Of a DNA stretch of 64,000 nucleotides, positions 2,121 to 51,816 are shown piece by piece. The translations under genes and the position numbers were made by a program. The DNA comes from a virus (taxonomy: Duplodnaviria > Heunggongvirae > Uroviricota > Caudoviricetes), in IMG/VR virus record IMGVR_UViG_3300035688_000604; one strand, 5' to 3'. Positions within the stretch are counted from its first letter, which is position 1, and each line of letters begins with the position of its first letter. The notes beneath the pieces are model-generated. The model had not been told where the DNA came from. It ran no database searches and worked only from the letters and a program-made list of their open reading frames with translations.

Positions 2121-2179
2121 TATTAGAATTAAGAATAAATAAAAATAAAAAAGTTCGCTTCAAATCCAAAGTATTCCTT

Positions 2180-2635: not shown

Positions 2636-2697
2636 CTTTTAAATATAATGACCATACAAGTATTTAAATTTTTCTAAATTTTTAAAAAATTTAAAAA

Positions 2698-5433: not shown

Positions 5434-5434
5434 A

Positions 5435-6267: not shown

Positions 6268-6273
6268 TCTTCA

Positions 6274-7131
6274 TCACTCTGTTATCTTCTTCAATATCCA
6301 TTTCAACGATAAAGGCAAGAAACCTACTATGAATACCACTGCCACGATTATCGAGACAATCAAAAACATGTAATAAAGTATTTTCCAGATGTCTATATTT
6401 ATGCTGACAAGTTGTGCTATTGATTGAACCACAGTTTTCATGGATGGGGAAACTTTTTCCTCGATGTTGACGATTGAAGTCGAATAACCCAAAAACATTA
6501 TTGAATAGTCTATGTCAGCACCAGTGACATTATCCGCCCAACCGAACTCTATCCTTTGTTGGTCTATATCAGATGATAAATATATTGAACCGACTGGACA
6601 ATACGCACTCTGCTCTCGTTGAACATCCTCATCTGAACTGTTCCACCAATTCCAACATGGTGTTGTATCGAGATAAACATAGTCAGTCGAAATATCAGCC
6701 CTTGGAAGTCTTAACTTGATTATAGGATTCCAATCTGTTTTGTTGCAGTTGTATGGAGTGAAATTACCAAAGCAATCATTGTTTGGTTCTGGAAAGATTT
6801 TGAACATGACGTTGAAATTCTTATGCTCGACATTATCTATATAAATAAAACGATTGCAGAAAGGTGCATCTCCGATTAGAGCAGTCCCATTAAAAACTTC
6901 ACCCTCAAGAGAACACCAATGGCAACTTCCTTCGACAAATATATCACATATAGTCCTATTGCCTTCCCCACCACATGTGTATCTTGAATAACAGTTTGTG
7001 TCATTGCCAACCCACATCCTGTAATTGACTATTGCTTCTTTTGCTGTCGTCTCATTACCAGTTGCAGACATCACACTTCCAAACATAAACATAATACTCA
7101 ATAAAATAATTGGAATGAATATTTTTTTCAT
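6274..7131 (-). CDS. secreted Cys-rich protein with C-terminal TM anchor
   Basis: Signal peptide MKKIFIPIILLSIMFMFGSVMSA, many Cys and NxT sites, C-terminal TM helix. Confidence 0.55.
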   Translation of the reverse strand: MKKIFIPIILLSIMFMFGSVMSATGNETTAKEAIVNYRMWVGNDTNCYSRYTCGGEGNRTICDIFVEGSCHWCSLEGEVFNGTALIGDAPFCNRFIYIDNVEHKNFNVMFKIFPEPNNDCFGNFTPYNCNKTDWNPIIKLRLPRADISTDYVYLDTTPCWNWWNSSDEDVQREQSAYCPVGSIYLSSDIDQQRIEFGWADNVTGADIDYSIMFLGYSTSIVNIEEKVSPSMKTVVQSIAQLVSINIDIWKILYYMFLIVSIIVAVVFIVGFLPLSLKWILKKITE

Positions 7132-7140
7132 AATTTCACC

Positions 7141-25430: not shown

Positions 25431-26952
25431 TAATATTAAACTGAGTTTGATTTTTTACCACCTCATAAATCTCACCCATATCATTACCGAAGACCTTTGT
25501 AAAATGAATCGTGTCTTGATTGATATTGTTCAAAAAATTGTAAGTGAATATTCCATACAAGTTGCTTTGGGGAAGAACATAATCGTTTCCGATGATTCCA
25601 CGCCAGACATAAATATAATCTGCTTTCTGGGTAATCAAATCATTGAATATAATTGCAGTATCATTAGACCTCATTATCTCTGGGAATTTTGAAGTGACCC
25701 AAGTATAATTTCTCTGTGCATAATAGTAGACACTACCACCGTATGCAGTGAATACTGTAGAATTTTGGGGGGTGTTATCTCTAATCCAATAAAGACCGTC
25801 TATGTAAGTTTGCTCCCATCTATGTTGAGATGATGTTGATTGGACTGTCGTGATTGAATTATACAGAAAATATGTGACCAGAACCGAAAGAACAATAAAG
25901 AAAACCCATCTTCTTTTTGTTGTGTTTTCTATGACCTCGCCTAATTCTTTCCAGTATCCGATAGTCAAGAAAGCCATGAAAGGATAAATGATAGCAAGAT
26001 ACCTGACTTCATGCGAGAATTTGAGAAACGCTGACATCACAAGGAAAAATGCTATCGCAAAAAAAGGAAGTTTAATTATTTTATCGTCTTCTTGTTTGTG
26101 ATAGGTATAAGCAAATCCTATAAAGATGAATGCCATCTGCCAGAAACCAATGCTTGAAACAAGGTCTACTACAAAAATCTTTCCAACAGCCTCAAACTCT
26201 GGGAGAGTTGTCGAAGGATAAGGATTCCCATGAATCATATACCAGACATCATTGAACATGAAGACTGCTGGAATCTTATAGACGGAAATGTCATAAAGAA
26301 CAAACAATCCAATAATTGCCAAAGGTATGACCATTGATATACCAATATATTTCCAACCAAACTTAGCCCATATCATGTAAGACAACAATATCGGAAAGAA
26401 TAACAATGCAGATTGTTTTGAGAAGAATGATAATGCTACAATGAATCCGAGAATGACCGCATACTTTATGTTTTTCTCCCTTGTTAGAATAAAAATAATC
26501 AAAGAAGAAAAGAAGGCGACAATCACTTCCACATAGGCAAGCATGAGAAAATGAGAGAAATATAAAAATGAAAGTAATAATGTTGATGTCAGAATCGCTG
26601 GAGCGATTCCTTTTATTTTTTCAACGGCAAAATAAAGCATCACGACTGCAAAGAACCCAAATATGCATGATACGATTTTTAAAACCGCAAGTTTGATTCC
26701 AAATATATGAAAAAGAATCGAGGATAAGAAGGACAACAACAAAGGTGCAGTAATAGGCTGACCGTCCCATGTGAAACCTGTATAGTTTCCTCTAAACATC
26801 TCCACTGCAATCCTGAAATAGGAAGCCTCATCTTCTCCAAGATAATCTGTCTTCGATGCCGAATACATGAAAAAAACAAAAAGACCGAAAAGAATTATAA
26901 GAAATATTGTCTCAAGTGTGCTCTCATTAAGTTGCAATTCTATTGTCTTCAA
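25420..26952 (-). CDS. GT-C fold membrane glycosyltransferase (PMT/ArnT-like dolichyl-phosphate-sugar transferase family)
   Basis: 510 aa with more than 10 TM helices. First-loop DE motif GEDEASYFRIA. No WWDYG oligosaccharyltransferase motif seen. Confidence 0.6.
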   Translation of the reverse strand: MKTIELQLNESTLETIFLIILFGLFVFFMYSASKTDYLGEDEASYFRIAVEMFRGNYTGFTWDGQPITAPLLLSFLSSILFHIFGIKLAVLKIVSCIFGFFAVVMLYFAVEKIKGIAPAILTSTLLLSFLYFSHFLMLAYVEVIVAFFSSLIIFILTREKNIKYAVILGFIVALSFFSKQSALLFFPILLSYMIWAKFGWKYIGISMVIPLAIIGLFVLYDISVYKIPAVFMFNDVWYMIHGNPYPSTTLPEFEAVGKIFVVDLVSSIGFWQMAFIFIGFAYTYHKQEDDKIIKLPFFAIAFFLVMSAFLKFSHEVRYLAIIYPFMAFLTIGYWKELGEVIENTTKRRWVFFIVLSVLVTYFLYNSITTVQSTSSQHRWEQTYIDGLYWIRDNTPQNSTVFTAYGGSVYYYAQRNYTWVTSKFPEIMRSNDTAIIFNDLITQKADYIYVWRGIIGNDYVLPQSNLYGIFTYNFLNNINQDTIHFTKVFGNDMGEIYEVVKNQTQFNISES

Positions 26953-27224
26953 GCAATCACCTTATTTACCACTCTTAAAACTTCAAAGATGTGTTGTGCT
27001 ACTTCTCTTCCTTCATTACTCAGTGATAAAATCATTGTGCGTCCTGATTTCTTCTTCAAAACAAGACCGAAGTTTTTTAAATCCTCAGTCATCTTCCAAA
27101 TTTGCGAGTATGCTATTCCAGTCATGCTCTGGATTGCTGACATGTTTAGGTTGTTATTCAGGAGAAGAAAGAGTATTTTGCACCTGACAGCAGAACCAAA
27201 AAATTTGAAGGAATTGTCTTTCAT
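26949..27224 (-). CDS. ArsR/MarR-like winged-helix transcription regulator
   Basis: KILFLLLNNNLNMSAIQSMTGIAYSQIWKMTEDLKNFGLVLKKKSGR shows an HTH plus wing. Sits at the downstream end of the MVHK array. Confidence 0.5.
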   Translation of the reverse strand: MKDNSFKFFGSAVRCKILFLLLNNNLNMSAIQSMTGIAYSQIWKMTEDLKNFGLVLKKKSGRTMILSLSNEGREVAQHIFEVLRVVNKVIA

Positions 27225-27548
27225 AGATAAACTATATGATTCCCGCTATATAAACTTTATATCCACTCAAGTAGAAAAGTATGATATGACTAAGGAAGAG
27301 TTACAGAGACTTCTTGATTTCTATAACGAAGAACTTGAAAAGAACAAAAAACTATTGATGAACACTGCAAAACTGAAAGAAATAAAACACATTCAAAACA
27401 AGATTAACTTTTATAATGAAAGGATAAAGGAATTATCTTTCATGACATAAACATGAGCAATATTCTGGATGTGGTTTTTCTGGGTCATGACATTTTCTGC
27501 AACATCTACCACGTTCTTTCTCCCATTTGGTTATTTTCTTATGAACCA

Positions 27549-27722
27549 TTATAATTCTAACCTCTTTATATTGCCTCGTTTATCTTCTATCTCTATCTCC
27601 TTCTCATAACCAGTCCCAAAATTTCTTCTCCACCATCGTAAAAATTCTATATCTGTTTCATCTTTCATTAAAAAATGCTCTTTCATTTTATCCAATATTT
27701 TTCTCTTAATTGTATGAACCAA
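27549..27722 (-). CDS. MVHK-array small protein 1 (57 aa, TTG start, (M)VHT...)
   Basis: TTG start preceded by GGTGA. Its TAA stop overlaps a degenerate remnant junction TAATGGTTCATAG. Manual translation. Confidence 0.45.
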   Translation of the reverse strand: MVHTIKRKILDKMKEHFLMKDETDIEFLRWWRRNFGTGYEKEIEIEDKRGNIKRLEL

Positions 27723-27923
27723 CTATTTCACCTTTCTAACTTCTTTATCTGCTTTTATTGACTTCAGATATTTAGAAGCACTTTTGTAACTCGAAAAATA
27801 TCCATGAGAAACCACATTAAAAAAAGGATGGGTTGTTTCTTGAACTTCCCATGAAGTTTTTATTCTTTCAGAATATGGAATACTTTTCCAGTGAACTATA
27901 TCAAATTTCAGTTTATGAACCAT
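27723..27923 (-). CDS. MVHK-array small protein 2 (66 aa)
   Basis: Junction tatgaaccat (RC ATGGTTCATAAA). The upstream extension in the ORF track is an artefact. Confidence 0.55.
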   Translation of the reverse strand: MVHKLKFDIVHWKSIPYSERIKTSWEVQETTHPFFNVVSHGYFSSYKSASKYLKSIKADKEVRKVK

Positions 27924-28180
27924 TATTTCTTTGCCTTTATTATTTTTATTTCTGCAACATCTCCTAATTTTACCATTTTCCAATTTTCAGGTCTTTTCCA
28001 TCCCTTCGGTAATTTTTCAAGACATTCATGGGCTTGACCCATTTCCATAGGATGCTTCCAACCACAATTTTGACATCTTGGATAGATTTGACCATAATGA
28101 TTAGTTGATTGATATGATACAAAACCACATTTAGTGCATCTGTATTTCTTTTGTGATATTTTTCCTATAGTGTGAACCAT
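27923..28180 (-). CDS. MVHK-array small protein 3 (85 aa, MVHT, Zn-ribbon)
   Basis: CTKCG...CQNCG. Its TAA overlaps the next ATG (TAATG). Confidence 0.55.
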   Translation of the reverse strand: MVHTIGKISQKKYRCTKCGFVSYQSTNHYGQIYPRCQNCGWKHPMEMGQAHECLEKLPKGWKRPENWKMVKLGDVAEIKIIKAKK

Positions 28181-28182
28181 TA

Positions 28183-28560
28183 TTATTCAACTTCTATGAT
28201 TTTTTTAACATCATTTCCAATATATTGACTGTTTCTGATGCTTGTTTTATTAGGTGCATAAAATTCATAAATATCTCCATATTTTGTCTTGACCCAGAAT
28301 TTCTTCATAACTGGTCTGAAATTAAATTTCACACCTTGTAAAGGTATGCTATCTTTAAAAAAAGAATTTCCTCTTATTCCTTCAAATATTCTGTCTTTGT
28401 CAGATTGAGTCCAATTCCCAGAAAATGCTTTTTGATGTAATTTCCATATATCAGTTCCTCTTACATCTTCTACAACACCTAACTCATTAAACGGTGCAAT
28501 ATATTCTTCATGATTCATTATCTGAAGATGTCCTTTTGATTTCTTTAATTTATGAACCAT
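28183..28560 (-). CDS. MVHK-array small protein 4 (125 aa)
   Basis: ATGGTTCATAAA start at 28558-60. Confidence 0.55.
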   Translation of the reverse strand: MVHKLKKSKGHLQIMNHEEYIAPFNELGVVEDVRGTDIWKLHQKAFSGNWTQSDKDRIFEGIRGNSFFKDSIPLQGVKFNFRPVMKKFWVKTKYGDIYEFYAPNKTSIRNSQYIGNDVKKIIEVE

Positions 28561-28736
28561 CAAAACAACCTTCTTTTCTTTTTCATTCCCTTTTCAGTCA
28601 TCTCCATCTCATAACCAGAAGTAACATGAACTTTAGACATGAGTGAAGAGACTTGCTTTCTGAATTCTTCTGGTGATACATTTACACCGCCAACTGCGAA
28701 CATGACTTTTGATTTGATTTCTTTTTTATGAACCAT
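28560..28736 (-). CDS. MVHK-array small protein 5 (58 aa)
   Basis: Manual translation gives MVHKKEIKSKVMFAVGGVNVSPEEFRKQVSSLMSKVHVTSGYEMEMTEKGMKKKRRLF. Its TGA overlaps the next ATG. Confidence 0.45.
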   Translation of the reverse strand: MVHKKEIKSKVMFAVGGVNVSPEEFRKQVSSLMSKVHVTSGYEMEMTEKGMKKKRRLF

Positions 28737-28738
28737 TT

Positions 28739-28939
28739 TTAATCACCATATTCTTTGGCAAACTCTTCTGCTTGTTTTTTGGTGGCAAATGTTTTTGACC
28801 ATATTATCTGACTCCCCGTATTCATAGTTGGGAATTTTACTCTTTGAACAACCCACCCCTTTCCAGACATTGGAAATACTTCTTTGGCATTATATACCTG
28901 TATAAAACTTCTTTTTTTGATTACTTTTTTATGAACCAT
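28739..28939 (-). CDS. MVHK-array small protein 6 (66 aa)
   Basis: Conserved junction GGTGATTAAAAATGGTTCAT. Confidence 0.55.
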   Translation of the reverse strand: MVHKKVIKKRSFIQVYNAKEVFPMSGKGWVVQRVKFPTMNTGSQIIWSKTFATKKQAEEFAKEYGD

Positions 28940-29040
28940 TAAGAATACACCCCTCTTTTATATCCACATTCCAAACATGGAGAAGTTAGGCATTTTTTAC
29001 CACAATATTCACATTTCTTATATTTTTGCTTATGAACCAA
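28939..29040 (-). CDS. MVHK-array small protein 7 (33 aa, TTG start, Zn-ribbon)
   Basis: Manual translation gives (M)VHKQKYKKCEYCGKKCLTSPCLECGYKRGVYS. TAATG coupling. Confidence 0.4.
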   Translation of the reverse strand: MVHKQKYKKCEYCGKKCLTSPCLECGYKRGVYS

Positions 29041-29044
29041 TCAA

Positions 29045-29293
29045 TCACCTTTTCATTCCCATAAATTTATGAACACCGTCCATCCACCACACATACCAAA
29101 CACTACCTTCAGTTTCAAGTTTTGGTTTTATGTATTTCCATTTTTCTTCAAATATTTTTTTAAGAAAATTTTGTGCTTTTCTGTCTCCTTTGAGTGCTTC
29201 TCCTGATATTAATGATAATGATTCAGACGCTTGTTCTTCTAACGGTGTTTCAAGTTGCCAAACATCCCCTAACACTTCTTGTTTATGAACCAT
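29045..29293 (-). CDS. MVHK-array small protein 8 (82 aa)
   Basis: ORF-track entry starting with MVHKQEV. Confidence 0.55.
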   Translation of the reverse strand: MVHKQEVLGDVWQLETPLEEQASESLSLISGEALKGDRKAQNFLKKIFEEKWKYIKPKLETEGSVWYVWWMDGVHKFMGMKR

Positions 29294-29394
29294 AATTAAT
29301 CCCTATAAACTGTTTTTCCTTCTCTCCAATAAAATCTTCTTGAATATTTACTATGAATACTTTGCATTTGTTCCAAAAATTTTTTTGCTTTTGT

Positions 29395-29445
29395 CACTGT
29401 TTCAAATTTTATTTTATTAACATCCTTTGACTTTTTGTGAACCAT
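29395..29445 (-). pseudogene. MVHK-array member 9, truncated after 16 codons (MVHKKSKDVNKIKFEQ*); an out-of-frame continuation runs to ~29298
   Basis: Conserved junction GGTGAAGTAATGGTTCACAAA but a stop after 16 codons. The continuing reading frame sits next to an A7 homopolymer. Confidence 0.4.
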
Positions 29446-29693
29446 TACTTCACCTTCTTTGCATAACCTTTAATGTCTTTGATGTAAACGTCTCCAAGTT
29501 CTCCTTGCGGTGTGAACGGTGATTTAACTTTGCAGAACCATCTTGCAAAAGGATTCTTTGTTTCGCCTTCTGGCTTCTGATATTTTCTGTAGACTTCCCA
29601 TTTCCAAGAACCATCTGGAGTCTCCCATACTTCAAGCGGAAGACCTTGCTTTAGTCTTTCTGATGTTGATAATTTTTTGATTTTGTGAACCAA
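29445..29693 (-). CDS. MVHK-array small protein 10 (82 aa, TTG start)
   Basis: gtgaaccaa junction (TTGGTTCACAAA). Confidence 0.5.
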   Translation of the reverse strand: MVHKIKKLSTSERLKQGLPLEVWETPDGSWKWEVYRKYQKPEGETKNPFARWFCKVKSPFTPQGELGDVYIKDIKGYAKKVK

Positions 29694-29894
29694 TCATCTC
29701 ACCTTTTCTTTTAATTTTAATGTCGATTTAATTAATTTCCATGAATATTCTGGAGAAAATCCCATATCATAAACTAAAACTTCATCTATTTCATCAATTG
29801 ATTTCCCTTTTTTATCCATTTTAAGTATTTCTTTTTTTATAATTTGTTCTTGAGATTTAGTTACATCTATTGTTTCTTTTCTTTTATGAACCAT
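29694..29894 (-). CDS. MVHK-array small protein 11 (66 aa)
   Basis: ORF-track entry starting with MVHKRKETIDV. Confidence 0.55.
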   Translation of the reverse strand: MVHKRKETIDVTKSQEQIIKKEILKMDKKGKSIDEIDEVLVYDMGFSPEYSWKLIKSTLKLKEKVR

Positions 29895-29901
29895 TTTTCA
29901 A

Positions 29902-30150
29902 TCACATCCTTTCAAATCCTTTTCTGATAAAATCACTCATGAAATTCAAAGCCTTCGATTTTGAAATATTTTCAGCGAGCACCTTTTCTTTTCCAGTATA
30001 AGTGTTCCTCAACACTACTTCCTTTTTTTGTATGCGATAAACAATAGCATTATTCACCTTATAATAAACACCTTCTGAAAATGCTATATAATTCGGTTCG
30101 GTATCCAAAACCCAATTTTTAGGAATCCTTAAATTAATTTTATGAACCAT
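29902..30150 (-). CDS. MVHK-array small protein 12 (82 aa)
   Basis: MVHK start at 30148-50. The longer track version is an artefact. Confidence 0.55.
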   Translation of the reverse strand: MVHKINLRIPKNWVLDTEPNYIAFSEGVYYKVNNAIVYRIQKKEVVLRNTYTGKEKVLAENISKSKALNFMSDFIRKGFERM

Positions 30151-30422
30151 TATAATGACCTCGCCCATTTTTCTATTTCAATTGGATGAAGATTAGATAA
30201 ATCATTCTTTTCTTCTTCCGTTAATAATTTATCATAATATTTATCAACATTTTTTCTCGTTATACCAAGTTTTTTTGCTTTCTTGAACATATCCTTTGCG
30301 AGTTTTTTATGTGATGAAATATCTTTCGGAGTATTTGCTACATTTTCAGCATAATCAGTATAATCTTCTCCTGTTTGCCAATATAAAATTCCTTTTTTTA
30401 GATTTTTAATTTTATGAACCAT
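30150..30422 (-). CDS. MVHK-array small protein 13 (90 aa)
   Basis: TAATG coupling on both sides. Confidence 0.55.
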   Translation of the reverse strand: MVHKIKNLKKGILYWQTGEDYTDYAENVANTPKDISSHKKLAKDMFKKAKKLGITRKNVDKYYDKLLTEEEKNDLSNLHPIEIEKWARSL

Positions 30423-30721
30423 TATAAATCCCTCTTGTTGTGATAACCAGCATCGACATAAATGAACCTTTTATGATTCAATTCATGATTGAACCTGTCT
30501 TCTTCTTTGACCAACCCAAGTTTCTTCAGTTCATCATATCCCGTCTGCTTCCAAGAATCCCCGTATCCATAAACCACTCCACTATAAGCAACCTGTTCGT
30601 TGGTATCGACATCTATCACAGTAGTCGAATGGTAAGTGTTTCCATTGACTTTATCGAACCATCTCTTGCCTATTATGATATACTTCTTGAGTTTTTTTGA
30701 TTTCAATATTTTATGAACCAT
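30422..30721 (-). CDS. MVHK-array small protein 14 (99 aa)
   Basis: ORF-track entry. Confidence 0.55.
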   Translation of the reverse strand: MVHKILKSKKLKKYIIIGKRWFDKVNGNTYHSTTVIDVDTNEQVAYSGVVYGYGDSWKQTGYDELKKLGLVKEEDRFNHELNHKRFIYVDAGYHNKRDL

Positions 30722-30723
30722 TT

Positions 30724-30876
30724 TTATTCATCTTCCAGTATATTTTCTATTGTTGCTTTTAATCCTTCATCAGTTTTATTGCCCCAAGTAGTTTTGTAAT
30801 AACCATCCTTTCCTTTATGCAATTGCAAAATTTCTTTCAATTTTTCAAATGTTTCTGTTTTTAATTTGTGAACCAT
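30724..30876 (-). CDS. MVHK-array small protein 15 (50 aa)
   Basis: Manual translation gives MVHKLKTETFEKLKEILQLHKGKDGYYKTTWGNKTDEGLKATIENILEDE. Confidence 0.45.
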   Translation of the reverse strand: MVHKLKTETFEKLKEILQLHKGKDGYYKTTWGNKTDEGLKATIENILEDE

Positions 30877-30879
30877 TAT

Positions 30880-31041
30880 TTACACCTTTTCATAAGTCAA
30901 TGCAAACTTATCAAATCCTATTATTTTTTCCGATATTAGATTATAGCCTTTGTTCTCTAACATAGATTTCATTTTTTCTGCTTTTTCAATACTTTTCAAA
31001 TTGCCAAAATCTACTTTGACTTTTCTTATTTTATGAACCAT
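30880..31041 (-). CDS. MVHK-array small protein 16 (53 aa)
   Basis: Manual translation gives MVHKIRKVKVDFGNLKSIEKAEKMKSMLENKGYNLISEKIIGFDKFALTYEKV. Confidence 0.45.
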   Translation of the reverse strand: MVHKIRKVKVDFGNLKSIEKAEKMKSMLENKGYNLISEKIIGFDKFALTYEKV

Positions 31042-31046
31042 TTATC

Positions 31047-31175
31047 TCACTTTATCCAATACTTATCAGTCTTCGGACTGTCAATACATTTTGCACATGG
31101 AATGTGATGACCCGCAGTTGGGCTAAATTTACCACATACGATGCATCTTAACATTCTTTGTTTTTTATGAACCAT
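31047..31175 (-). CDS. MVHK-array small protein 17 (42 aa, Zn-ribbon)
   Basis: Manual translation gives MVHKKQRMLRCIVCGKFSPTAGHHIPCAKCIDSPKTDKYWIK. Confidence 0.45.
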   Translation of the reverse strand: MVHKKQRMLRCIVCGKFSPTAGHHIPCAKCIDSPKTDKYWIK

Positions 31176-31177
31176 GA

Positions 31178-31432
31178 TTAATCAACCTCTAAAACAAACT
31201 CTTTTGTCATTATTCTCTTCAATTCAGGTTTTATTTTTTTCTTGTCCTTGACGAATGAAGATGCCATCATATCTCCTTTTTTTATTCCCCAGTCGAACCA
31301 ATAATCTTTCCCATCCTTGCGGACTGCAACAAAACCTCTTAATCCCCTGTATTCTGCACCGTCTTTAAAGGCTCTGAATAATTTCCACCCTTCTGGAAGT
31401 TCATTCTTTTTTAATTTCATTAAGTGAACCAT
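31178..31432 (-). CDS. MVHK-array small protein 18 (84 aa, MVHL)
   Basis: ORF-track entry. Confidence 0.55.
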   Translation of the reverse strand: MVHLMKLKKNELPEGWKLFRAFKDGAEYRGLRGFVAVRKDGKDYWFDWGIKKGDMMASSFVKDKKKIKPELKRIMTKEFVLEVD

Positions 31433-31716
31433 TACATCACCTTCTTATAATGCGGAAGATTTCTAATCCTGCTGTAATTGACAACTTTTGATTTAAATTC
31501 TGGCTCTTTATTGAATCTTTTCTGGAATGCATCGACAAAAGTTGTGGCATCCGCATCCTCTTCCAGATATGCAAATTTACCGTCTGGGGTTTGATAACTA
31601 TAACCAGTTATTTTATCTGCTATGCCAAGTTCCTTTAATTCTTCTATCGGGACTTTTATCCAACCGTGACTTGCATCTGAAGTGAACAAATATTTTCCTT
31701 TGATTTTATGAACCAT
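31432..31716 (-). CDS. MVHK-array small protein 19 (94 aa)
   Basis: ORF-track entry. Confidence 0.55.
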   Translation of the reverse strand: MVHKIKGKYLFTSDASHGWIKVPIEELKELGIADKITGYSYQTPDGKFAYLEEDADATTFVDAFQKRFNKEPEFKSKVVNYSRIRNLPHYKKVM

Positions 31717-31720
31717 TTAA

Positions 31721-31996
31721 TCACCATAATTCTTTTTTAAGTTTTTCATTTACTTCTTTTCTTGTTTTAGCGAAAACCCAACCAAATTTAGTCCTTCCGA
31801 CAAATCCTTTTGTTCTGTGCAATCCAAATTTTGTTGAAAATGTTTGCGGAAAAGGGAATCCGCCTTTTTTATAATCCCAATCTTTCACTTGCTTGTCATA
31901 TTGAATTAAAGCCAAACGATTGTATTCGCTAACTGGAATTATTTCTCCTATTGATACATTTTCGCTCATAACAGTTTGTTGTCGCTTATGAACCAT
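31721..31996 (-). CDS. MVHK-array small protein 20 (91 aa)
   Basis: ORF-track entry. Confidence 0.55.
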   Translation of the reverse strand: MVHKRQQTVMSENVSIGEIIPVSEYNRLALIQYDKQVKDWDYKKGGFPFPQTFSTKFGLHRTKGFVGRTKFGWVFAKTRKEVNEKLKKELW

Positions 31997-32002
31997 TATA
32001 AA

Positions 32003-32149
32003 TCAACCTCTAAATTTCTTTTTAGTCAAATCATACTCCTTTTCTGTTAAATAAGAATAACTTTGAAGAAATTCTTCTTTTGATAATTTTTTAAAATCCC
32101 TCATCTTTTCTTTATCGTCTAAAAAATCTGTATATTTTATTCTATGCAT
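32003..32149 (-). CDS. MVHK-array variant 20b (48 aa) starting MHR (ATGCATAGA; looks like a 3-nt deletion of the GTT codon)
   Basis: Manual translation gives MHRIKYTDFLDDKEKMRDFKKLSKEEFLQSYSYLTEKEYDLTKKKFRG. Confidence 0.4.
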   Translation of the reverse strand: MHRIKYTDFLDDKEKMRDFKKLSKEEFLQSYSYLTEKEYDLTKKKFRG

Positions 32150-32151
32150 AA

Positions 32152-32328
32152 TTATTTCCTCGCTCCTTTTATAGCACTTTCTAATTCATCCATCTCATCT
32201 GCGATGTATTGTTGTTTGACATAACTTCCAGTTGTATCTATTCCTGCTTCTTCGCAACTTTCGTAATTATCTTTTATTGCCTTTAGTAAATCTTTTGCTC
32301 TTGATTTTATCTCATTTTTGTGAACCAT
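32152..32328 (-). CDS. MVHK-array small protein 21 (58 aa, acidic)
   Basis: Manual translation gives MVHKNEIKSRAKDLLKAIKDNYESCEEAGIDTTGSYVKQQYIADEMDELESAIKGARK. Confidence 0.45.
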   Translation of the reverse strand: MVHKNEIKSRAKDLLKAIKDNYESCEEAGIDTTGSYVKQQYIADEMDELESAIKGARK

Positions 32329-32580
32329 TCATTTCACCCATTTTTTTCTCCATTCAGGTTTATGAAAATTGATAACATCCGTGACTATATCATAAGTTGC
32401 TCTGTCTTTTGGGTCTTGTAAATCTAAAATTCCTTCTCCTTCTTTTAAAATTTTGAATAATCTTTTGGATTCCTCTGCATATTCTCTATCACCAAATGGG
32501 TCTGTTTTGTCTTCTTTCTTGAATATCCTTTCCAACTTTTCAATCATTTCTTTTCTCGTAAATTTAGATTTATGAACCAT
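32329..32580 (-). CDS. MVHK-array small protein 22 (83 aa)
   Basis: ORF-track entry. TGAATG junction. Confidence 0.55.
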   Translation of the reverse strand: MVHKSKFTRKEMIEKLERIFKKEDKTDPFGDREYAEESKRLFKILKEGEGILDLQDPKDRATYDIVTDVINFHKPEWRKKWVK

Positions 32581-32731
32581 TTTATCACCAATTTATTTTA
32601 CCACCAAGATAATCAATAGTTTTTATTACCGTATCCTCATCTTTATCTGAAAGTTTATTATCATCATATAATTCTTGCAATCTATCAATCAATTCCCTTT
32701 TCTTAATATTCCAAACTCTTTTGTGAACCAT
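32581..32731 (-). pseudogene. MVHK-array member 23, frameshifted (MVHKRVWNIKKGN*, then a -1 frame ORF ...RLQELYDDNKLSDKDEDTVIKTIDYLGGKINW*)
   Basis: Its N-terminus resembles the upstream neighbour (MVHKRIWKGFK), suggesting a decayed partial duplicate. The frame shifts at AAGAAAGGG. Confidence 0.4.
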
Positions 32732-32736
32732 TTAAA

Positions 32737-33069
32737 TTACCTGTATTTTTTTAATAATTTTTTAAAACCCTTTACTTCACTTTTTTCTAAATATTTTTTT
32801 GAATATTTTTCTGGGGCTGAAGTGCCAAAAATATCTTCCTTTTCTTTTTTAGTAAAATTTTTTAACATTCTTTTTTCTATAGGGACTAATGGAATCTCCC
32901 TGTTTGGCAAATCTACCCAATCGGCAATGACTGTTTTCATCGCTTCTTTTGTTATTGGTTTATTTCCATAACCTTCAATACCCTCGTAAAAATCTGGGTC
33001 TATCATATTAAGATTTTCCCCATGTTGTATCTCGAATTTAAATCCTTTCCAAATTCTTTTATGAACCAT
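32737..33069 (-). CDS. MVHK-array small protein 24 (110 aa)
   Basis: MVHKRIWKGF at 33067-69. The track's N-terminal extension is an artefact. Confidence 0.55.
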   Translation of the reverse strand: MVHKRIWKGFKFEIQHGENLNMIDPDFYEGIEGYGNKPITKEAMKTVIADWVDLPNREIPLVPIEKRMLKNFTKKEKEDIFGTSAPEKYSKKYLEKSEVKGFKKLLKKYR

Positions 33070-33070
33070 A

Positions 33071-33187
33071 TTAATCATTCCTACCATATTGCGGTTTCCC
33101 ACAATCTCTACAAAATATCCCTCTCATGGTTTCCCATGATATTTTCTTGCTCCCACAAAATTTGCATTTCATTCTTTTGTGAACCAA
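33071..33187 (-). CDS. MVHK-array small protein 25 (38 aa, TTG start, Zn-ribbon)
   Basis: Manual translation gives (M)VHKRMKCKFCGSKKISWETMRGIFCRDCGKPQYGRND. Confidence 0.4.
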   Translation of the reverse strand: MVHKRMKCKFCGSKKISWETMRGIFCRDCGKPQYGRND

Positions 33188-33238
33188 ATCATCTCACCTA
33201 TATTCTAAATCCTATAGTTAGATTTTTAAACCTTACTT

Positions 33239-33541
33239 TTACTTCAAAATAACTTTCGGGAACTGCTTTCTGAACCCTGAAACACTCATCTCATAACCAT
33301 TGTAAGCAACCAACGGAGATTCCACTTTCGCTAATTTGGTATATGGATGCCCAACAAAAAGTGTCTTTTTCTTTTCTTTTGAAAACCTATTAGCCTCTTT
33401 CAACGTCTTGAAAACATAATAAAAATCGCTTTCTCCACTTGTAGGATGAGCCCACACTCTTATCTGCGGATGTTTGAGTTTCCCTCTTGTCTCTTGAATT
33501 ATATCAATCATTCCTTTGATTTTTTTAGTCTTATGAACCAT
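33239..33541 (-). CDS. MVHK-array small protein 26 (100 aa)
   Basis: ORF-track entry. A 51 bp AT-rich spacer (33188-33238) downstream may hold an internal promoter. Confidence 0.55.
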   Translation of the reverse strand: MVHKTKKIKGMIDIIQETRGKLKHPQIRVWAHPTSGESDFYYVFKTLKEANRFSKEKKKTLFVGHPYTKLAKVESPLVAYNGYEMSVSGFRKQFPKVILK

Positions 33542-33545
33542 TCAA

Positions 33546-33734
33546 TCATCTCGTTACCCAGACTTTCCATTCCTTTCCATATTTTTTAACTTCTACTTTC
33601 GGTTTTTTCTTGGAATAGATGTTGACCCATTCTTCCTTCTTTTTCGTCAATGGCGGAGACATTATATTTATTGTCAATTTATTCAGTTCAACTTCTGTCA
33701 TACTTTTATGTCTTTTAAAGACTTTGTGAACCAT
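33546..33734 (-). CDS. MVHK-array small protein 27 (62 aa), first gene of the minus-strand array
   Basis: ORF-track entry. GGTGAAAGTATGGTTCAC junction. Confidence 0.55.
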   Translation of the reverse strand: MVHKVFKRHKSMTEVELNKLTINIMSPPLTKKKEEWVNIYSKKKPKVEVKKYGKEWKVWVTR

Positions 33735-33817
33735 ACTTTCACCTACTTAATAATAGCACTATTAAATATTTAAATATTTCTAAAAAATTTAAATATTTAT
33801 ACATACATAGATTATAC
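33735..33817. promoter_or_regulatory. AT-rich bidirectional promoter region of the MVHK array (repeated AAATATTTA boxes)
   Basis: 83 bp between the divergent MVHK genes: ...attaaatatttaaatatttctaaaaaatttaaatatttatacatacat... Confidence 0.4.
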
Positions 33818-34018
33818 ATGGTTCACAAGATGCGATTGCCAAAAAAAGTCGTAATTTACCCAAGAGGATTTTATAAAGAAAGTGCTGAAGGTTTCATGGG
33901 GATATTTTTCCAAAGGAAGTCTTTGTTAGAATACCAGCATACAAAACTGACCCTGAATATGCTGAACGTGGTAGTGTTGCAACTCATGAAACAATGCATC
34001 AGGTTTGGAGAAAATTAA
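33818..34018 (+). CDS. MVHK-array small protein, plus strand (66 aa, MVHKMRLPKK)
   Basis: ATGGTTCACAAG start on the plus strand, divergent from the main array. Confidence 0.5.
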   Translation: MVHKMRLPKKVVIYPRGFYKESAEGFMGIFFQRKSLLEYQHTKLTLNMLNVVVLQLMKQCIRFGEN

Positions 34019-34236
34019 ACACTAAGGAAAAAGTCATGTTTATGAAGAAAATGGGGAAAGTTGAGAAATTACCTTCTGAGTTGAAAGGTTACAACCCAGT
34101 TTTGCAGGCTATGAAAAAAACAGCACCTAAAAAAGATATATTATCAATGAAAAAAATAGGCGTGAGCCCAGAAAAATTAGTAACTGCCACAGAGACTTTC
34201 CCAAGAATGGGAGCATATTGGGTTTGGGGGTATTAA
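33994..34236 (+). CDS. small basic protein (80 aa, MHQ...), overlaps the previous ORF by 25 nt
   Basis: ORF-track entry. The overlap could mark a frameshifted longer gene. Confidence 0.35.
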   Translation: MHQVWRKLNTKEKVMFMKKMGKVEKLPSELKGYNPVLQAMKKTAPKKDILSMKKIGVSPEKLVTATETFPRMGAYWVWGY

Positions 34237-34237
34237 A

Positions 34238-34456
34238 ATGCATAAAAGACGAGAAGATTTAGTCACACCAGAACAGTATCCAGAAGCATTCAAGTATTTT
34301 AAATATTTAATGAAAAAACATGGGATTAAGAGGTCGAGACTTCTTAAACGGGAAGGTGAAGTTGAAGAAAAAACAAGATATATACAAAAAATTCCTCAGA
34401 GAGAATTCAGGGAAGCGGTGATAACATTAAAAAATCATCATAAACCTGAATTTTAA
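34238..34456 (+). CDS. MVHK-array variant (72 aa) starting MHKR (ATGCATAAAAGA; looks like a GTT-deleted version of ATGGTTCATAAA)
   Basis: ORF-track entry. Confidence 0.45.
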   Translation: MHKRREDLVTPEQYPEAFKYFKYLMKKHGIKRSRLLKREGEVEEKTRYIQKIPQREFREAVITLKNHHKPEF

Positions 34457-40215: not shown

Positions 40216-40290
40216 TTGCGAGAGTCGGATTTGAACCGACAATCTCTGATTCATGAGACCAGTATGTTAACCAAGTTACACCATCTCGCA
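40216..40290 (-). tRNA. tRNA with CAT anticodon (Met or Ile2), CCA not encoded
   Basis: RC reads TGCGAGA TG GTGT AACTTGGTTA ACAT A CTGGT CTCATGA ATCAG AGATT GTCGG TTCAAAT CCGAC TCTCGCA A. Good cloverleaf with a 7-bp acceptor stem and TTCAAAT T-loop. Confidence 0.8.
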
Positions 40291-50076: not shown

Positions 50077-51816
50077 ATGATTGAAGATTCTATGCTGTTT
50101 TGGTATCCAAAAATAAAGATTTTAGATATTCCTCAACCTAAGACGGAAATATACGAGATACCAAAGAATATTCTTGAAAATCTTTGTGAAGAAAACATGC
50201 AGAATCTTGATATGAATGCAGTAAAGGAAGTTGCAAATAGAATCGGCTATCCGCTTTTTTTGAGGACTGACCTTGCTTCTGGAAAGTTTTTTTGGAAAAG
50301 AAGTTGTTTCGTTGAAAAGGAAGAAGATTTGAAACAGCATATATTTGAAGTTATTTCCTTTAACCAGTGTGCCGATATATGTGGTCTTCCTTTTGAGGCT
50401 CTGGTCTTTAGAGAATACATACCCATGAAGAATTTGTTCACTGCATTTTACGGTGAGATGCCAGTCAACCCCGAAATAAGATTCTTTGTAAAAGACGGGG
50501 AAGTAAAATGTTGGCATTGGTATTGGTGTTGCTGTAAAGATACAGAAGTCCTTACTGATAATGGGTTTAAAAAATTTAAAGATTTAATAAAAGAAAAGAT
50601 ATTCACTCTTAATCCAAAAACAAGAAAAATAGAATTATTACCTTTCAATAAAGTGATTAGTTATCATTATAAAGGAAAAATGATTCATATTTCTGACAAA
50701 ACATTCGATATGTTAGTAACGCCAGACCATAAACTACCAGTTTTTACTCAAAATAATAAAAAAATTAATTTAATTAAAGCAGAGGACTTGAAATATAATT
50801 ATAAAATCCCACGAACAGGCATCTGGAAGGGAAAGAAAAGAGAGCGGATAAAGATTGGTGATTTGACTTTTAGAACATCTGATTTTTTTGAATTTATGGG
50901 ATATTATATTTCAGAAGGTTCTATAGGGAAATCAATAACAAGCCCAAACATAATACTTTCTCAAATACCAAAAAAACAAAAGATAATTACTGATTGTTTG
51001 GAAAGGATGAAAATTGAACATAAAATATATGGTAAGAATATAACTATTTCAAAGATACAAACAAAGTATAGGGCTTTATATGATTATCTGTTGAAACTTG
51101 GTAAATCTTATGAAAAGTTCGTTCCTAAAGAACTCAAAGAATATTCCCCAGAATATTTAAAGAATTTTCTTAATGCTTATTGTTTTGGGGATGGATATAT
51201 AGACAATACTTCAAAATTTGATTCTATTATCAGATTATTTTCCACTTCTTCTTATAAATTAGCGAATGATTTATGTGAAATCATATTAAAAACTGGAAAG
51301 CGACCATCAATCTATCAAAAACATAAAAAATCTAAATTCTTTATTAAAAAATGGTATCGGACTAAACATCCTGTTTTTACTGTTGTTGAAGGAAATACAA
51401 AAAATTTCTGTTATGAGCACCCATCATCACGAAAAAACAAAAATAAAGTAAAGATAATTGATTATGATGATATGGTTTATTGTGTTTCTATGCCCCAAAA
51501 TCATATTATTTATATTAAAAGAAACGGCAAATGTTCTTGGACTGGAAATTGTGAAGAGGCGATAAAACAACCGTCTGTAAGCAATTGGAAAGAGATACTT
51601 GAAAATGAAAAGAAAAGTGTTTTTGGCAATGAAATATTATGGTTGACAGCAGATGCGAGAAAGGTATCGAAAGTTCTTGATGGTTATTGGTCTGTGGATT
51701 TTTGCAAGGCGAAGAATGATAAATGGATATTAATTGATTGTGCGATTGGAAAAAATTCATGGCATCCAGAAGATTGCAAGTATGCTAAATACAAAAAGAG
51801 AGGTGATTTAATTTAA
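50077..51816 (+). CDS. ATP-grasp-like enzyme interrupted by an intein with a LAGLIDADG-like motif
   Basis: Exteins: GYPLFLRTDLASGK..., EIRFFVKDGEVKCWHWYW | CEEAIKQPSV...WILIDCAIGKNSWHP. The insert begins CCKDTEVLTDNGF (intein block A) and contains LNAYCFGDGYID. Confidence 0.5.
   Translation: MIEDSMLFWYPKIKILDIPQPKTEIYEIPKNILENLCEENMQNLDMNAVKEVANRIGYPLFLRTDLASGKFFWKRSCFVEKEEDLKQHIFEVISFNQCADICGLPFEALVFREYIPMKNLFTAFYGEMPVNPEIRFFVKDGEVKCWHWYWCCCKDTEVLTDNGFKKFKDLIKEKIFTLNPKTRKIELLPFNKVISYHYKGKMIHISDKTFDMLVTPDHKLPVFTQNNKKINLIKAEDLKYNYKIPRTGIWKGKKRERIKIGDLTFRTSDFFEFMGYYISEGSIGKSITSPNIILSQIPKKQKIITDCLERMKIEHKIYGKNITISKIQTKYRALYDYLLKLGKSYEKFVPKELKEYSPEYLKNFLNAYCFGDGYIDNTSKFDSIIRLFSTSSYKLANDLCEIILKTGKRPSIYQKHKKSKFFIKKWYRTKHPVFTVVEGNTKNFCYEHPSSRKNKNKVKIIDYDDMVYCVSMPQNHIIYIKRNGKCSWTGNCEEAIKQPSVSNWKEILENEKKSVFGNEILWLTADARKVSKVLDGYWSVDFCKAKNDKWILIDCAIGKNSWHPEDCKYAKYKKRGDLI
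50530..51549 (+). mobile_element. intein (~340 aa) with LAGLIDADG-like endonuclease motif
   Basis: An N-terminal Cys followed by KDTEVL, LNAYCFGDGYID (LAGLIDADG-like), and a C-terminal ...NHIIYIKRNGKCSWTGN|C. Boundaries are approximate; the C-terminal splice motif is atypical (no canonical HN). Confidence 0.5.

What the first reader, a model, noticed from the sequence alone, without database searches (positions are those of the whole stretch)
27549..34456. Array of ~31 unrelated small genes that all begin with the same nucleotide block (GGTGA-N3-6-TAATGGTTCAYAAR, giving MVHK)
Across 6.9 kb, 28 consecutive minus-strand genes plus 3 divergent plus-strand genes encode proteins of 33-125 aa with no evident similarity to one another. 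Some are Zn-ribbons and some are basic or acidic. Every one starts with ATG(or TTG)-GTT-CAY-AAR preceded by GGTGA, and the stop of the upstream gene usually overlaps the start (TAATG, TGATG or TAAATG). Valine is encoded as GTT in all ~30 copies while the His and Lys codons vary synonymously. Nucleotide-level conservation of a ~20 nt junction around otherwise unrelated cassettes points to a function at the DNA or RNA level: a cassette boundary or recombination site, an RNA processing or translation-coupling element, or gene conversion. The organisation resembles an integron-like cassette array or viral hypervariable small-gene arrays, but no integrase is visible. I do not recognise this as any described system.
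Basis: seen in the sequence. Interest (0 to 1): 0.9.

Follow-up and report, generated by a model that had tools for sequence, protein, structure and literature searches.

The report
Shuffling array of MVHK-tagged small genes
A roughly 100-kb archaeal virus- or plasmid-like element carries one operon of 29 unrelated small genes that all start with the same four amino acids (Met-Val-His-Lys). Near-identical relatives carry different sets of these genes swapped exactly at that shared start, and I found no description of such an arrangement.

Summary
On the minus strand, 28 back-to-back genes (33734 to 27433) start [A/T]TG-GTT-CAY, and 25 of them continue with Lys. A 29th gene starts MHRIK, and one divergent plus-strand gene also starts MVHK. 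There are 23 exact ATGGTTCAYAAR sites against 0.11 expected.

The members are not paralogues, and allele comparisons show purifying selection. Near-identical contigs from other assemblies carry different cassette sets. All 14 homology breakpoints on the window lie within -11 to +17 nt of a cassette start. There is no attC-like repeat, no integrase and no intergenic space, so this is not an integron.

The shared block is mainly a peptide or codon-level feature. Diverged relatives (GC 33-51%) keep M-[V/A/T/S/P or nothing]-H-[K/R] with other codons. Other lineages put a different shared start (MAYKIK, MFKVK) on homologous cassettes. Phage homologues of one cassette lack it. Yet Val is GTT 28/28 here (41% internally), so codons are constrained too.

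Best reading: a hypervariable accessory-gene operon. Each cassette has a standard 5' adapter (Shine-Dalgarno, start, tag, Lys-rich linker) that standardises early translation and serves as the crossover point for shuffling. A T4-like targeting tag is the main rival.

The parts
27433..33734 (-). Whole array: 29 tightly packed cassette genes (33-125 aa), probably one operon. 28 start M-V-H and one starts MHRIK.
   Evidence: no enrichment of promoter- or terminator-like sites inside
33735..33817 (.). Divergent A+T-rich control region with two TATA-like boxes forming a 17-nt palindrome (33763-33779 / 33783-33799). It coincides with the strand switch and the GC-skew minimum.
   Evidence: I15; promoter role is inferred
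33546..33734 (-). cassette 1, 62 aa, MVHKVFK; preceded by AGGTGA
33239..33541 (-). cassette 2, 100 aa, MVHKTKK. Found 100% identical (351 nt) in L003 and L004 with different neighbours. The homologue in L221 starts MTHK.
33071..33187 (-). cassette 3, 38 aa, TTG start, CxxC...CxxC
32737..33069 (-). cassette 4, 110 aa, MVHKRIW
32585..32731 (-). cassette 5, 48 aa. Identity with L001 ends at 32720, the last base of its ATGGTTCACAAA.
32329..32580 (-). cassette 6, 83 aa
32152..32328 (-). cassette 7, 58 aa. The L132 allele starts TTG-GTG-CAT-AAA.
32003..32149 (-). cassette 8, 48 aa, degenerate tag MHRIK (ATG CAT AGA). The L127 homologue starts MVHKIK and sits at another position in its array.
31721..31996 (-). 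cassette 9, 91 aa
31432..31716 (-). cassette 10, 94 aa
31178..31432 (-). cassette 11, 84 aa, MVHL
31047..31175 (-). cassette 12, 42 aa, zinc-ribbon-like
30880..31041 (-). cassette 13, 53 aa. The homologue in L136 (58% identity) starts MPYK.
30724..30876 (-). cassette 14, 50 aa
30422..30721 (-). cassette 15, 99 aa, RWFDKVNGNTYHS family (phrog_6246). The tag plus Lys-rich linker (residues 1-13) is predicted to be coil, and the fold starts at residue 14.
30150..30422 (-). cassette 16, 90 aa
29902..30150 (-). cassette 17, 82 aa
29694..29894 (-). cassette 18, 66 aa
29445..29693 (-). cassette 19, 82 aa, TTG start. Homology with L001 resumes at 29690. 19 of 58 database homologues carry MVH[KR].
29296..29445 (-). 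cassette 20, 49 aa
29045..29293 (-). cassette 21, 82 aa
28939..29040 (-). cassette 22, 33 aa, TTG start, zinc-ribbon-like
28739..28939 (-). cassette 23, 66 aa
28560..28736 (-). cassette 24, 58 aa
28183..28560 (-). cassette 25, 125 aa
27923..28180 (-). cassette 26, 85 aa, MVHT, zinc-ribbon-like
27723..27923 (-). cassette 27, 66 aa
27549..27722 (-). cassette 28, 57 aa, TTG start, MVHT
27433..27549 (-). cassette 29, 38 aa, Cys-rich
33818..34236 (+). Divergent MVHK-tagged gene with no Shine-Dalgarno sequence (possibly leaderless). Here it is split by a frameshift into 66-aa and 80-aa ORFs. It is intact (139 aa, HETMH motif) in L004.
34238..34456 (+). 72-aa gene starting MHKRRE, the tag variant without Val

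Best explanation
The region is a hypervariable accessory-gene operon. It sits on an archaeal (probably DPANN-associated) virus- or plasmid-like element of roughly 100 kb.

About 30 unrelated small ORFan genes are strung together with almost no intergenic DNA. Each begins with the same 5' adapter:
- a Shine-Dalgarno sequence buried in the end of the preceding gene;
- the start codon;
- the codons for Val-His-Lys;
- a Lys-rich, unstructured linker.

Most likely the adapter does two jobs.

1. It is a standard start-of-translation and N-terminal module. It gives any cassette behind it the same initiation and early-elongation context. This would explain why it is conserved as amino acids and preferred codons, and why each lineage has its own version.

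2. Because it is identical in every cassette, it is the place where recombination between co-occurring relatives deletes, inserts, replaces and re-orders whole cassettes. This is microhomology-mediated modular shuffling.

Shown:
- the array itself, and the absence of paralogy;
- purifying selection on the cassettes;
- cassette-level mosaicism with breakpoints at the adapter;
- lineage-specific tags on homologous cassettes.

Inferred:
- a single transcript;
- the translational role;
- the recombination mechanism;
- an accessory (host-takeover or anti-defence) role for the proteins;
- the host.
For: Array and motif:
- The 29 members show no paralogy. Across 12 loci, about 200 tagged genes fall into about 140 families, with only one within-locus paralogue pair.
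- They are real genes. Allele differences fall 27:14:68 by codon position, with 55 synonymous and 36 non-synonymous codon changes.

Cassette exchange:
- L001 is 100% identical to the window over 10,822 nt, up to the last base of one ATGGTTCACAAA. It then has 3 cassettes where the window has 14. Homology resumes at the next junction at 98.98% identity.
- L003 and L004 share only one 351-nt cassette with the window, inside a different context.
- L127 and L132 show further replacements and a re-ordered cassette.
- All 14 distinct breakpoints on the window lie between -11 and +17 nt of a cassette start. A 29-nt target in a 217-nt mean spacing gives about 0.13 per event by chance.
- Both array versions occur in one metagenome.
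- Identical arrangements recur in independent assemblies.

Peptide or codon-level module:
- Diverged arrays keep M(V)HK at GC 33-51% with other codons.
- Residue 2 is V 102, A 4, T 3, P 2, S 1 or absent (about 12 cases). It is never I, L, F, M, D or E.
- Other lineages use MAY[GK]IK or MF[KG][VI]K on homologous cassettes.
- Most phage homologues of the 99-aa cassette start directly at the domain.
- Val is GTT 28/28 here against 41% internally, and 22/22 in L221 against 25% internally.
- K+R make up 33% of residues 5-12 against 19% elsewhere.
- AlphaFold2 (mean pLDDT 94) puts residues 1-13 in coil ahead of the fold.

Published support:
- In E. coli, codons 3-5 set protein yield through both amino acid and nucleotide identity. 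K|N-Y|I and KIH are among the best, and A/U is favoured (PMC6920384).

Element:
- It carries MCM, Orc1/Cdc6-like, PCNA, histone and Hjc genes.
- Close relatives of its MCM occur only on unnamed contigs of 105 kb or less. The next best matches are DPANN MAGs at 33-35% identity.
Against: - No expression, transcript or proteomic data exist.
- Twelve identical bases plus a loose Shine-Dalgarno sequence are short for homologous recombination. In L222 and L138 the codons vary, so nucleotide identity is not maintained everywhere.
- If the tag were only an optimal translational ramp, other strongly expressed genes of the element should use it. None does.
- Many different good ramps should also coexist, rather than one per genome.
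- The rule that residue 2 is small or absent keeps the His, Tyr or Phe at position 2 of the mature chain after Met excision. That rule, and the flexible linker, fit a peptide recognised by a partner at least as well.
- The translational-ramp data come from E. coli, not archaea.
- Host and replicon type are not established. No capsid or terminase gene was found in the window.
Confidence: 0.5

Rival explanations
1. The tag is an N-terminal address label in the manner of the T4 capsid targeting sequence. M-(small)-His-Lys plus a basic flexible linker would be recognised by a lineage-specific partner. That partner could be a scaffold or capsid interior, a vesicle or export machinery, or a protease or chaperone. 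Dozens of unrelated small effectors would then be delivered or handled together. Shuffling at the junction would be a by-product.
For: - Conservation is at amino-acid level across GC 33-51%.
- Residue 2 is always permissive for Met excision or absent. The mature N-terminus is therefore X-[H/Y/F]-K in every variant and dialect.
- The tag is genome-specific, not family-specific. This is what co-evolution with a reader would give.
- Tag and linker are unstructured ahead of the fold.
- The tag is confined to the array.
Against: - Four residues is a very short signal.
- No candidate reader, protease or capsid gene was identified.
- The neighbouring HExxH gene is frameshifted in the window and in two other contigs.
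- A peptide reading alone does not explain the excess of GTT and of C-ending His and Tyr codons.
Confidence: 0.28
2. The block is only a lineage-specific translation-initiation context. It plays no part in recombination, and the mosaicism arises from illegitimate recombination filtered by selection for intact genes.
For: - Homologous genes elsewhere lack the block or carry another one.
- The genes are tightly coupled.
- A/U-rich early codons are favoured (PMC6920384).
Against: - Fourteen of 14 breakpoints fall within a 29-nt span around the start, with homology running exactly through the motif.
- Selection for intact genes would allow breakpoints anywhere in the short spacers or gene ends, and would leave scars.
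- One genuine scar, the in-frame fusion in L001, still joins at GTTCAC.
Confidence: 0.1
3. The block is a target on RNA or DNA. It could be a shared site for an antisense or small RNA, an RNA-processing enzyme or a DNA-binding regulator that controls all cassettes at once. It could also be a site for a dedicated site-specific recombinase (integron-like).
For: - The 8-mer ATGGTTCA is invariant, and Val is GTT 28/28 here and 22/22 in L221.
Against: - Three-nucleotide insertion/deletion variants (MHK) and variants with other codons are tolerated.
- There is no complementary copy elsewhere in the window apart from a real gene start.
- No Rfam family matches.
- There are no attC-like inverted repeats and no integrase.
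- There is no flanking sequence that could form a conserved structure.
Confidence: 0.07
4. This is ordinary paralogy: a tandemly duplicated gene family that has diverged beyond recognition except at its N-terminus.
For: - The members share a start and have similar small sizes.
Against: - No pairwise similarity exists among the 29.
- Members include different folds: zinc ribbons, the RWFDK alpha/beta domain, and acidic helical proteins.
- Several have independent homologues elsewhere without the tag.
- The same family carries different tags in different genomes.
Confidence: 0.03

Closest known systems
Internal-protein (IP) locus of T-even phages, with its capsid targeting sequence
   Same: A polymorphic locus encodes unrelated small proteins whose only common feature is a conserved N-terminal peptide (PMC3012670, citing Repoila et al. 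1994). The proteins are accessory and anti-defence. The shared 5' sequence accompanies modular exchange between related phages (this last point is from my own recollection of Repoila et al.).
   Different: The T4 signal is about 10 residues. It is cleaved by the prohead protease, and its packaging role has been shown by experiment. Only a few such genes occur per phage. Here the tag is 3-4 residues plus a basic linker and sits on about 30 genes in one operon. The element is archaeal-type, with no identified capsid, protease or reader.
PeSL mobile regulatory cassettes in the hyperplastic regions of T4-type phages
   Same: Short conserved sequence blocks flank ORFan genes in hypervariable regions. 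Recombination between the blocks causes the insertions, deletions and replacements that distinguish near-identical genomes (PMC2839356, PMC4122927).
   Different: PeSLs are intergenic promoter plus stem-loop terminator units, and each gene is its own transcription unit. Here there is no intergenic space and no stem-loop. The conserved block is the ribosome-binding site plus the first four codons.
Integron gene-cassette arrays
   Same: A one-directional array of promoterless, unrelated cassettes lies downstream of a common promoter region. Cassette content varies between close relatives.
   Different: There is no IntI integrase, no attI and no attC imperfect palindromes. The repeated element lies at the 5' coding end of each cassette, not at its 3' non-coding end.
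Viral early-gene / 'ORFanage' / host-takeover modules (for example the cyanophage ORFanage, PMC4503421)
   Same: These are clusters of small, fast-turnover genes of unknown function that are gained and lost between close relatives.
   Different: As far as I know, those modules are not described as sharing an identical N-terminus.
Short translational ramp (codons 3-5) and engineered standard N-terminal expression tags
   Same: A few N-terminal codons rich in K, I, Y or H and in A/U determine protein yield largely independently of the downstream gene. Both amino acid and nucleotide identity matter (PMC6920384).
   Different: This was shown in E. coli and eukaryotic reporters, not in archaea. It is not known as a natural, genome-wide uniform adapter on a cassette array.

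Membership tests
Integron | IntI tyrosine recombinase next to the array | tested here: not met
   Pfam scans of 31 of the longer ORFs and of 61 further ORFs gave no integrase family. The neighbours of the array are an HExxH protein, small ORFs and a 309-aa protein of unknown function.
Integron | attC imperfect inverted repeat (about 55-140 nt) at the 3' end of each cassette | tested here: not met
   Twenty-five of the 27 junctions between MVH-tagged genes measure -1 to +7 nt. One exception is 51 nt. The other holds cassette 32149-32003, whose own junctions measure 2 and 6 nt. The inverted-repeat search found no local arms at the junctions.
Integron | Cassette content varies between close relatives, with boundaries at the repeated site | tested here: met
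PeSL-type regulatory cassettes | Conserved intergenic promoter plus stem-loop terminator between ORFan genes | tested here: not met
   There is no intergenic space. Promoter-like sites: 29 against 31.6 expected. Terminator-like sites: 5 against 2.7. The scan covers sigma-70-type promoters only, so archaeal promoters were not assessed.
PeSL-type regulatory cassettes | Differences between near-identical genomes map to the conserved blocks | tested here: met
T4-like capsid-targeting-sequence protein set | Unrelated proteins share only a conserved N-terminal peptide, in a polymorphic locus | tested here: met
T4-like capsid-targeting-sequence protein set | The tag directs the proteins into the prohead and is removed by a prohead protease | not testable with these tools
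   No capsid, scaffold or prohead protease was recognised. This needs virion and N-terminal proteomics.
Tandem paralogous gene family | Detectable sequence homology among members | tested here: not met
   BLASTP all-against-all with the first 5 residues removed gave no pair among the 29 window members at E<1e-3. The MAFFT alignment has invariant columns only in the tag.
Archaeal virus or plasmid-like element (replicon type) | Virus hallmark genes (capsid, terminase) or plasmid transfer genes | tested here: inconclusive
   None were found in the window. The related locus L221 has a DUF87 / terminase-like ATPase (phrog_2666, 1e-11). A conserved 54-aa hydrophobic protein and a module of secreted proteins are shared with L222. 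The window carries replication genes but no ribosomal-protein hit.

The most novel reading that the evidence does not exclude
The N-terminal M-(small)-[His/Tyr/Phe]-Lys-(Ile/Val)-Lys tag plus basic linker is a new kind of address label. After Met excision it would present X-His-Lys at the free N-terminus. A lineage-specific reader would recognise it. A family of large DPANN-associated archaeal viruses or plasmids would use it to load, export or co-regulate dozens of interchangeable small effector proteins. The arrays would then be a plug-and-play effector library, and each lineage's tag 'dialect' would define who can exchange cassettes with whom.
Probability: 0.25. Interest if true: 0.9.

Novelty: new variant of a known kind. 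Interest (0 to 1): 0.78.

Why it matters
If this holds, it shows a natural way of keeping a large, fast-changing library of unrelated small genes expressible and exchangeable. The unit that is standardised is the first few codons, not a promoter or a recombination site.

It would give:
- a simple sequence signature (many adjacent genes sharing one N-terminus) for finding accessory or effector gene arrays in uncultivated archaeal mobile elements;
- a set of about 140 or more small protein families that are candidates for host-takeover or anti-defence functions in DPANN-type systems;
- a testable case of either translational-ramp standardisation in archaea or a very short N-terminal targeting signal.

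The lineage-specific tag dialects also offer a marker for which elements share a common cassette pool.

Tried and rejected
Searches that gave little or nothing:
- Scanning IMG/VR for GGTGA-N3-6-ATGGTTCAYAAR returned only single matches, consistent with chance.
- Both genome-contig scans (the 309-aa neighbour and the MCM) found no relative, so no GTDB species could be assigned.
- Literature searches for MVHK, MAYKIK and related strings, for the sample accessions, and for arrays with conserved N-termini in archaeal viruses found nothing relevant.
- Pfam on ten array-region proteins (seven of them cassettes) and PHROGs on all 29 cassettes plus the L004 protein gave one real hit, phrog_6246 of unknown function for the 99-aa cassette.
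- Pfam on the large proteins next to related arrays gave only a carbohydrate-binding module.
- The 54-aa conserved hydrophobic protein has no match in phage records or PHROGs.
- A Foldseek search of the 99-aa cassette model against the PDB gave nothing at E<=0.001. The weak resemblances to EndoV/RNase H-like folds and to T7 Gp1.2 (E 0.005-0.02, TM about 0.4) are not used.

Ideas considered and dropped:
- tRNA-like or T-loop similarity of GGTTCA, judged coincidental.
- Pairing with helix 45 of 16S rRNA, where the partner bases are dimethylated.
- An element-encoded special initiator tRNA. The tRNA(CAU) at 40216 is not initiator-like.
- ATCUN metal binding, which is not shared by the Tyr and Phe dialects.
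- Tandem-repeat or assembly artefacts. Loci L166, L170, L200 and L208 were such artefacts and were excluded.

Full report

Yes. ATGGTTCAYAAR occurs 23 times in the 64-kb window. All sites lie between 27538 and 33829, against 0.11 expected from shuffles.

With TTG starts and variation at the fourth codon allowed, 28 consecutive minus-strand genes of 33-125 aa begin [A/T]TG-GTT-CAY. A position-by-position count shows an invariant TGGTTCA after the first base. This is followed by Y, then AAR in most genes. Upstream there is only a GGTGA-like Shine-Dalgarno sequence at variable distance. It often lies inside the last codons or the stop codon of the preceding gene.

Junction spacing is tight. Stop and start overlap by 1 nt in 8 junctions, abut in 3 and are 1-7 nt apart in 14. 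Two apparent gaps are larger, 51 nt and 155 nt. The 155-nt gap holds a 29th cassette (32149-32003) that begins MHRIK. Its homologue in another contig begins MVHKIK.

On the plus strand only 33818 begins MVHK. The gene at 34238 begins MHK. The ORF at 33994 is the second half of a frameshifted gene that is intact (139 aa, HETMH motif) in locus L004. No other gene in the window has the motif.

Val is GTT in 28/28, against 41% GTT at internal Val codons (P about 2e-11). His and Lys codons vary.

**2. Are the members related to each other, and are they genes?**

All-against-all BLASTP, with the first five residues removed, finds no pair among the 29 at E<1e-3. A multiple alignment has conserved columns only in the tag.

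Alleles of the same cassette in different contigs differ mostly at third codon positions (27:14:68). They show 55 synonymous and 36 non-synonymous codon changes. So the cassettes are protein-coding and under purifying selection.

Pfam finds nothing at its thresholds for the seven cassettes scanned. PHROGs places one of the 29 cassettes, the 99-aa one, in a family of unknown function.

**3. Cassette polymorphism**

Exact-protein look-ups found the same locus in other assemblies.

- L001 is a 91-kb JGI contig. It is 100% identical to the window over 10,822 nt, up to the last base of the ATGGTTCACAAA of cassette 32731.
- After that point L001 carries 3 cassettes where the window has 14. Homology resumes at window 29690, the start of the next cassette, at 98.98% identity.
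- In L001 the last of the three cassettes is fused in frame to the following one. The start codon is replaced by GGT, giving ...RHG-VHKIKK....
- L003 and L004 share with the window only the 351-nt 100-aa cassette, at 100% identity. Its neighbours there are different tagged cassettes.
- L127 and L132 add further replacements. One cassette sits at a different position in the order.

All 14 distinct homology-block ends on the window lie between -11 and +17 nt of a cassette start. For a 29-nt target in a mean spacing of 217 nt, chance gives about 0.13 per event.

Both array versions are present in one metagenome (L001 and L128). The same arrangements recur in independent JGI, Logan and ENA assemblies. 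The repeat is also shorter than the k-mer sizes assemblers normally use (my own knowledge, not tested here). Assembly chimeras are therefore unlikely.

**4. What the shared block is**

*The 99-aa cassette family.* The 99-aa cassette belongs to a large family (RWFDKVNGNTYHS; 340 database hits). Most members start directly at the domain (MIKY..., MKKY...). The window's copy has an extra MVHKILKSKKLKK. AlphaFold2 (mean pLDDT 94) puts residues 1-13 in coil with lower confidence, and the fold starts at residue 14.

*Other shared starts on homologous cassettes.* Homologues that sit in other arrays carry other shared starts:
- MAY[GK]IK / MSYAIK in L133;
- MF[KG][VI]K / MAFKV / MPFEV in L136;
- M[TAV]HK in L138, at 51% GC.

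A second family behaves the same way: the window 53-aa cassette starts MVHK and its L136 homologue starts MPYK. A third does too: the window 100-aa cassette starts MVHK and its L221 homologue starts MTHK.

*The 82-aa cassette.* It has 58 homologues. Nineteen carry MVH[KR], down to 52% identity. The rest start at the domain, and one of them is labelled Candidatus Thorarchaeota.

*Long M(V)HK arrays in diverged elements.* These occur in L143, L220, L221 (about 22 genes) and L222 (about 17 genes).
- Codon 2 is GTT 22/22 in L221, against 25% internally.
- In L222 it is GTA 6, GTT 2, GTC 1, GTG 1.
- In L143 it is GTT 5, GTA 4.

*Residue 2.* In a count that allowed any residue at position 2, it is V 102, A 4, T 3, P 2, S 1, or absent in about 12 cases. 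It is never I, L, F, M, D or E, although those are single-base neighbours of Val. All the residues observed permit removal of the initiator Met (established specificity of methionine aminopeptidase). The His, or Tyr or Phe in other dialects, would therefore be residue 2 of the mature protein in every variant. This is an inference.

*Conclusion.* The block is a genome-specific, not family-specific, N-terminal module. It is conserved as peptide. In some lineages there is additional codon-level uniformity.

**5. Context**

- The array starts at a divergent A+T-rich region with a 17-nt palindrome of TATA-like boxes. This sits at the strand switch and the GC-skew minimum.
- The window encodes MCM, an Orc1/Cdc6-like protein, PCNA, a histone, a PolB-exonuclease/RNase H-like protein, DprA, helicases, inteins, HNH nucleases, glycosyltransferases and large secreted Laminin_G_3 proteins. 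A syntenic copy of the locus (L139) also has an Hjc call on record.
- No hit to a ribosomal-protein, capsid or terminase family passed threshold.
- Close relatives of its MCM (40-66% identity) occur only on unnamed contigs of 105 kb or less. The next best matches are DPANN MAGs at 33-35%.
- A module of secreted proteins and a 54-aa hydrophobic protein (87% identity) is shared with L222.

I read this as a roughly 100-kb archaeal virus- or plasmid-like element, possibly of DPANN hosts. This is tentative.

**6. Mechanism**

The cassette shuffling at the adapter is well supported.

What the adapter is for is less certain. I favour a standard start module (about 0.5). It would combine coupled re-initiation through the embedded Shine-Dalgarno sequence with a fixed early-elongation 'ramp'. 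In E. coli, codons 3-5 rich in K, I, Y or H and in A/U give the highest yields, through both amino-acid and nucleotide effects (PMC6920384). That matches the mixed peptide and codon conservation and the Lys-rich continuation seen here.

Uniformity within a genome would then follow from cassettes entering only by recombination in the adapter.

The main rival (about 0.28) is an address tag like the T4 capsid targeting sequence (PMC3012670). It better explains three things: the rule that residue 2 is small or absent, the flexible linker, and the restriction of the tag to the array.

The integron-like, RNA-target and paralogy readings are weak.

**7. Comparison and novelty**

The closest known systems are these:
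- the T-even internal-protein locus, which has the same logic but a longer, cleaved, experimentally proven signal;
- PeSL-mediated modular shuffling (PMC2839356, PMC4122927), which has the same population pattern but an intergenic promoter-terminator block.

This array is not a member of either, nor of the integrons.

I found no description of arrays of this kind. I rate it a new variant of a known kind, namely hypervariable viral accessory-gene regions with conserved boundary blocks. It has a real chance of hiding a new targeting system.

Noticed in passing
window 33818-34236 (+); L004:14-433 (-): The divergent MVHK-tagged gene is split by a frameshift into 66-aa and 80-aa ORFs in the window, L001 and L002. 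It is an intact 139-aa protein with an HETMH (HExxH, metalloprotease-like) motif in L004. Pfam and PHROGs give no match.
   Followed up: partly
window 40216-40290 (-): The element carries a tRNA with anticodon CAU. It has G1-C72 and lacks three G:C pairs in the anticodon stem, so it is not initiator-like. It could be an elongator Met tRNA or an AUA-reading Ile2 tRNA, which would suit the many ATA codons.
   Followed up: partly
window 613-774 (-) and 1266-9378 (-); L222:39-5118: A 54-aa Gly-rich hydrophobic protein (MGTLNDTL...) is 87% identical to one in L222, while the adjacent large signal-peptide proteins (745, 285, 81, 196 and 911 aa; Laminin_G_3) are only 26-44% identical. This may be an envelope or virion module. 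It has no match in phage records or PHROGs.
   Followed up: partly
window 58475-61695 (-): MCM and an Orc1/Cdc6-like gene lie side by side. Close relatives of the MCM occur only on unnamed contigs of up to 105 kb. The nearest named relatives are DPANN MAGs at 33-35% identity.
   Followed up: partly
window 33735-33817: The GC-skew minimum and the switch of coding strand coincide with a 17-nt palindrome of TATA-like boxes (33763-33779 / 33783-33799). This could be a bidirectional promoter, and perhaps an origin of replication.
   Followed up: no
L151:251-3062: Seven genes start MAK[LFM]K. Each is preceded by a conserved caaagaaaagctgtc block with 25-42 nt spacers. This is a different kind of shared gene-start block, in a contig that holds a homologue of the 99-aa cassette.
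   Followed up: no
L133:3224-7497 and L136:3643-10565: These arrays of small genes share MAY[GK]IK (ATGGCATACGGAATAAAA repeated exactly) or MF[KG][VI]K starts, in 30%-GC contigs that also encode large Laminin_G_3 secreted proteins. Tyr is mostly TAC despite the low GC.
   Followed up: partly
L001:11125-11577: A 150-aa ORF is an in-frame fusion of two cassettes. The second start codon is replaced by GGT, so a VHK relic lies inside the protein.
   Followed up: yes
L127:1880-2011: A 43-aa gene that matches the C-terminal glycyl-radical part of NrdD (PF13597) sits inside an MVHK array but lacks the tag (it starts MEKEK).
   Followed up: no
window 50077-51816 (+): A 579-aa protein combines a weak ATP-grasp-like N-terminal match with an intein that contains a LAGLIDADG domain. 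Related elements have inteins in MCM and other genes.
   Followed up: no
window 63783-63849: A short tandem repeat (units of 10-12 and 22 nt, ACCATACTGA / AACCATACGGGA) lies near the end of the window.
   Followed up: no
window 26949-27224 (-): A 91-aa winged-helix (TrmB-like, sub-threshold) protein lies directly downstream of the last cassette, before the PMT_2 / glycosyltransferase island.
   Followed up: no
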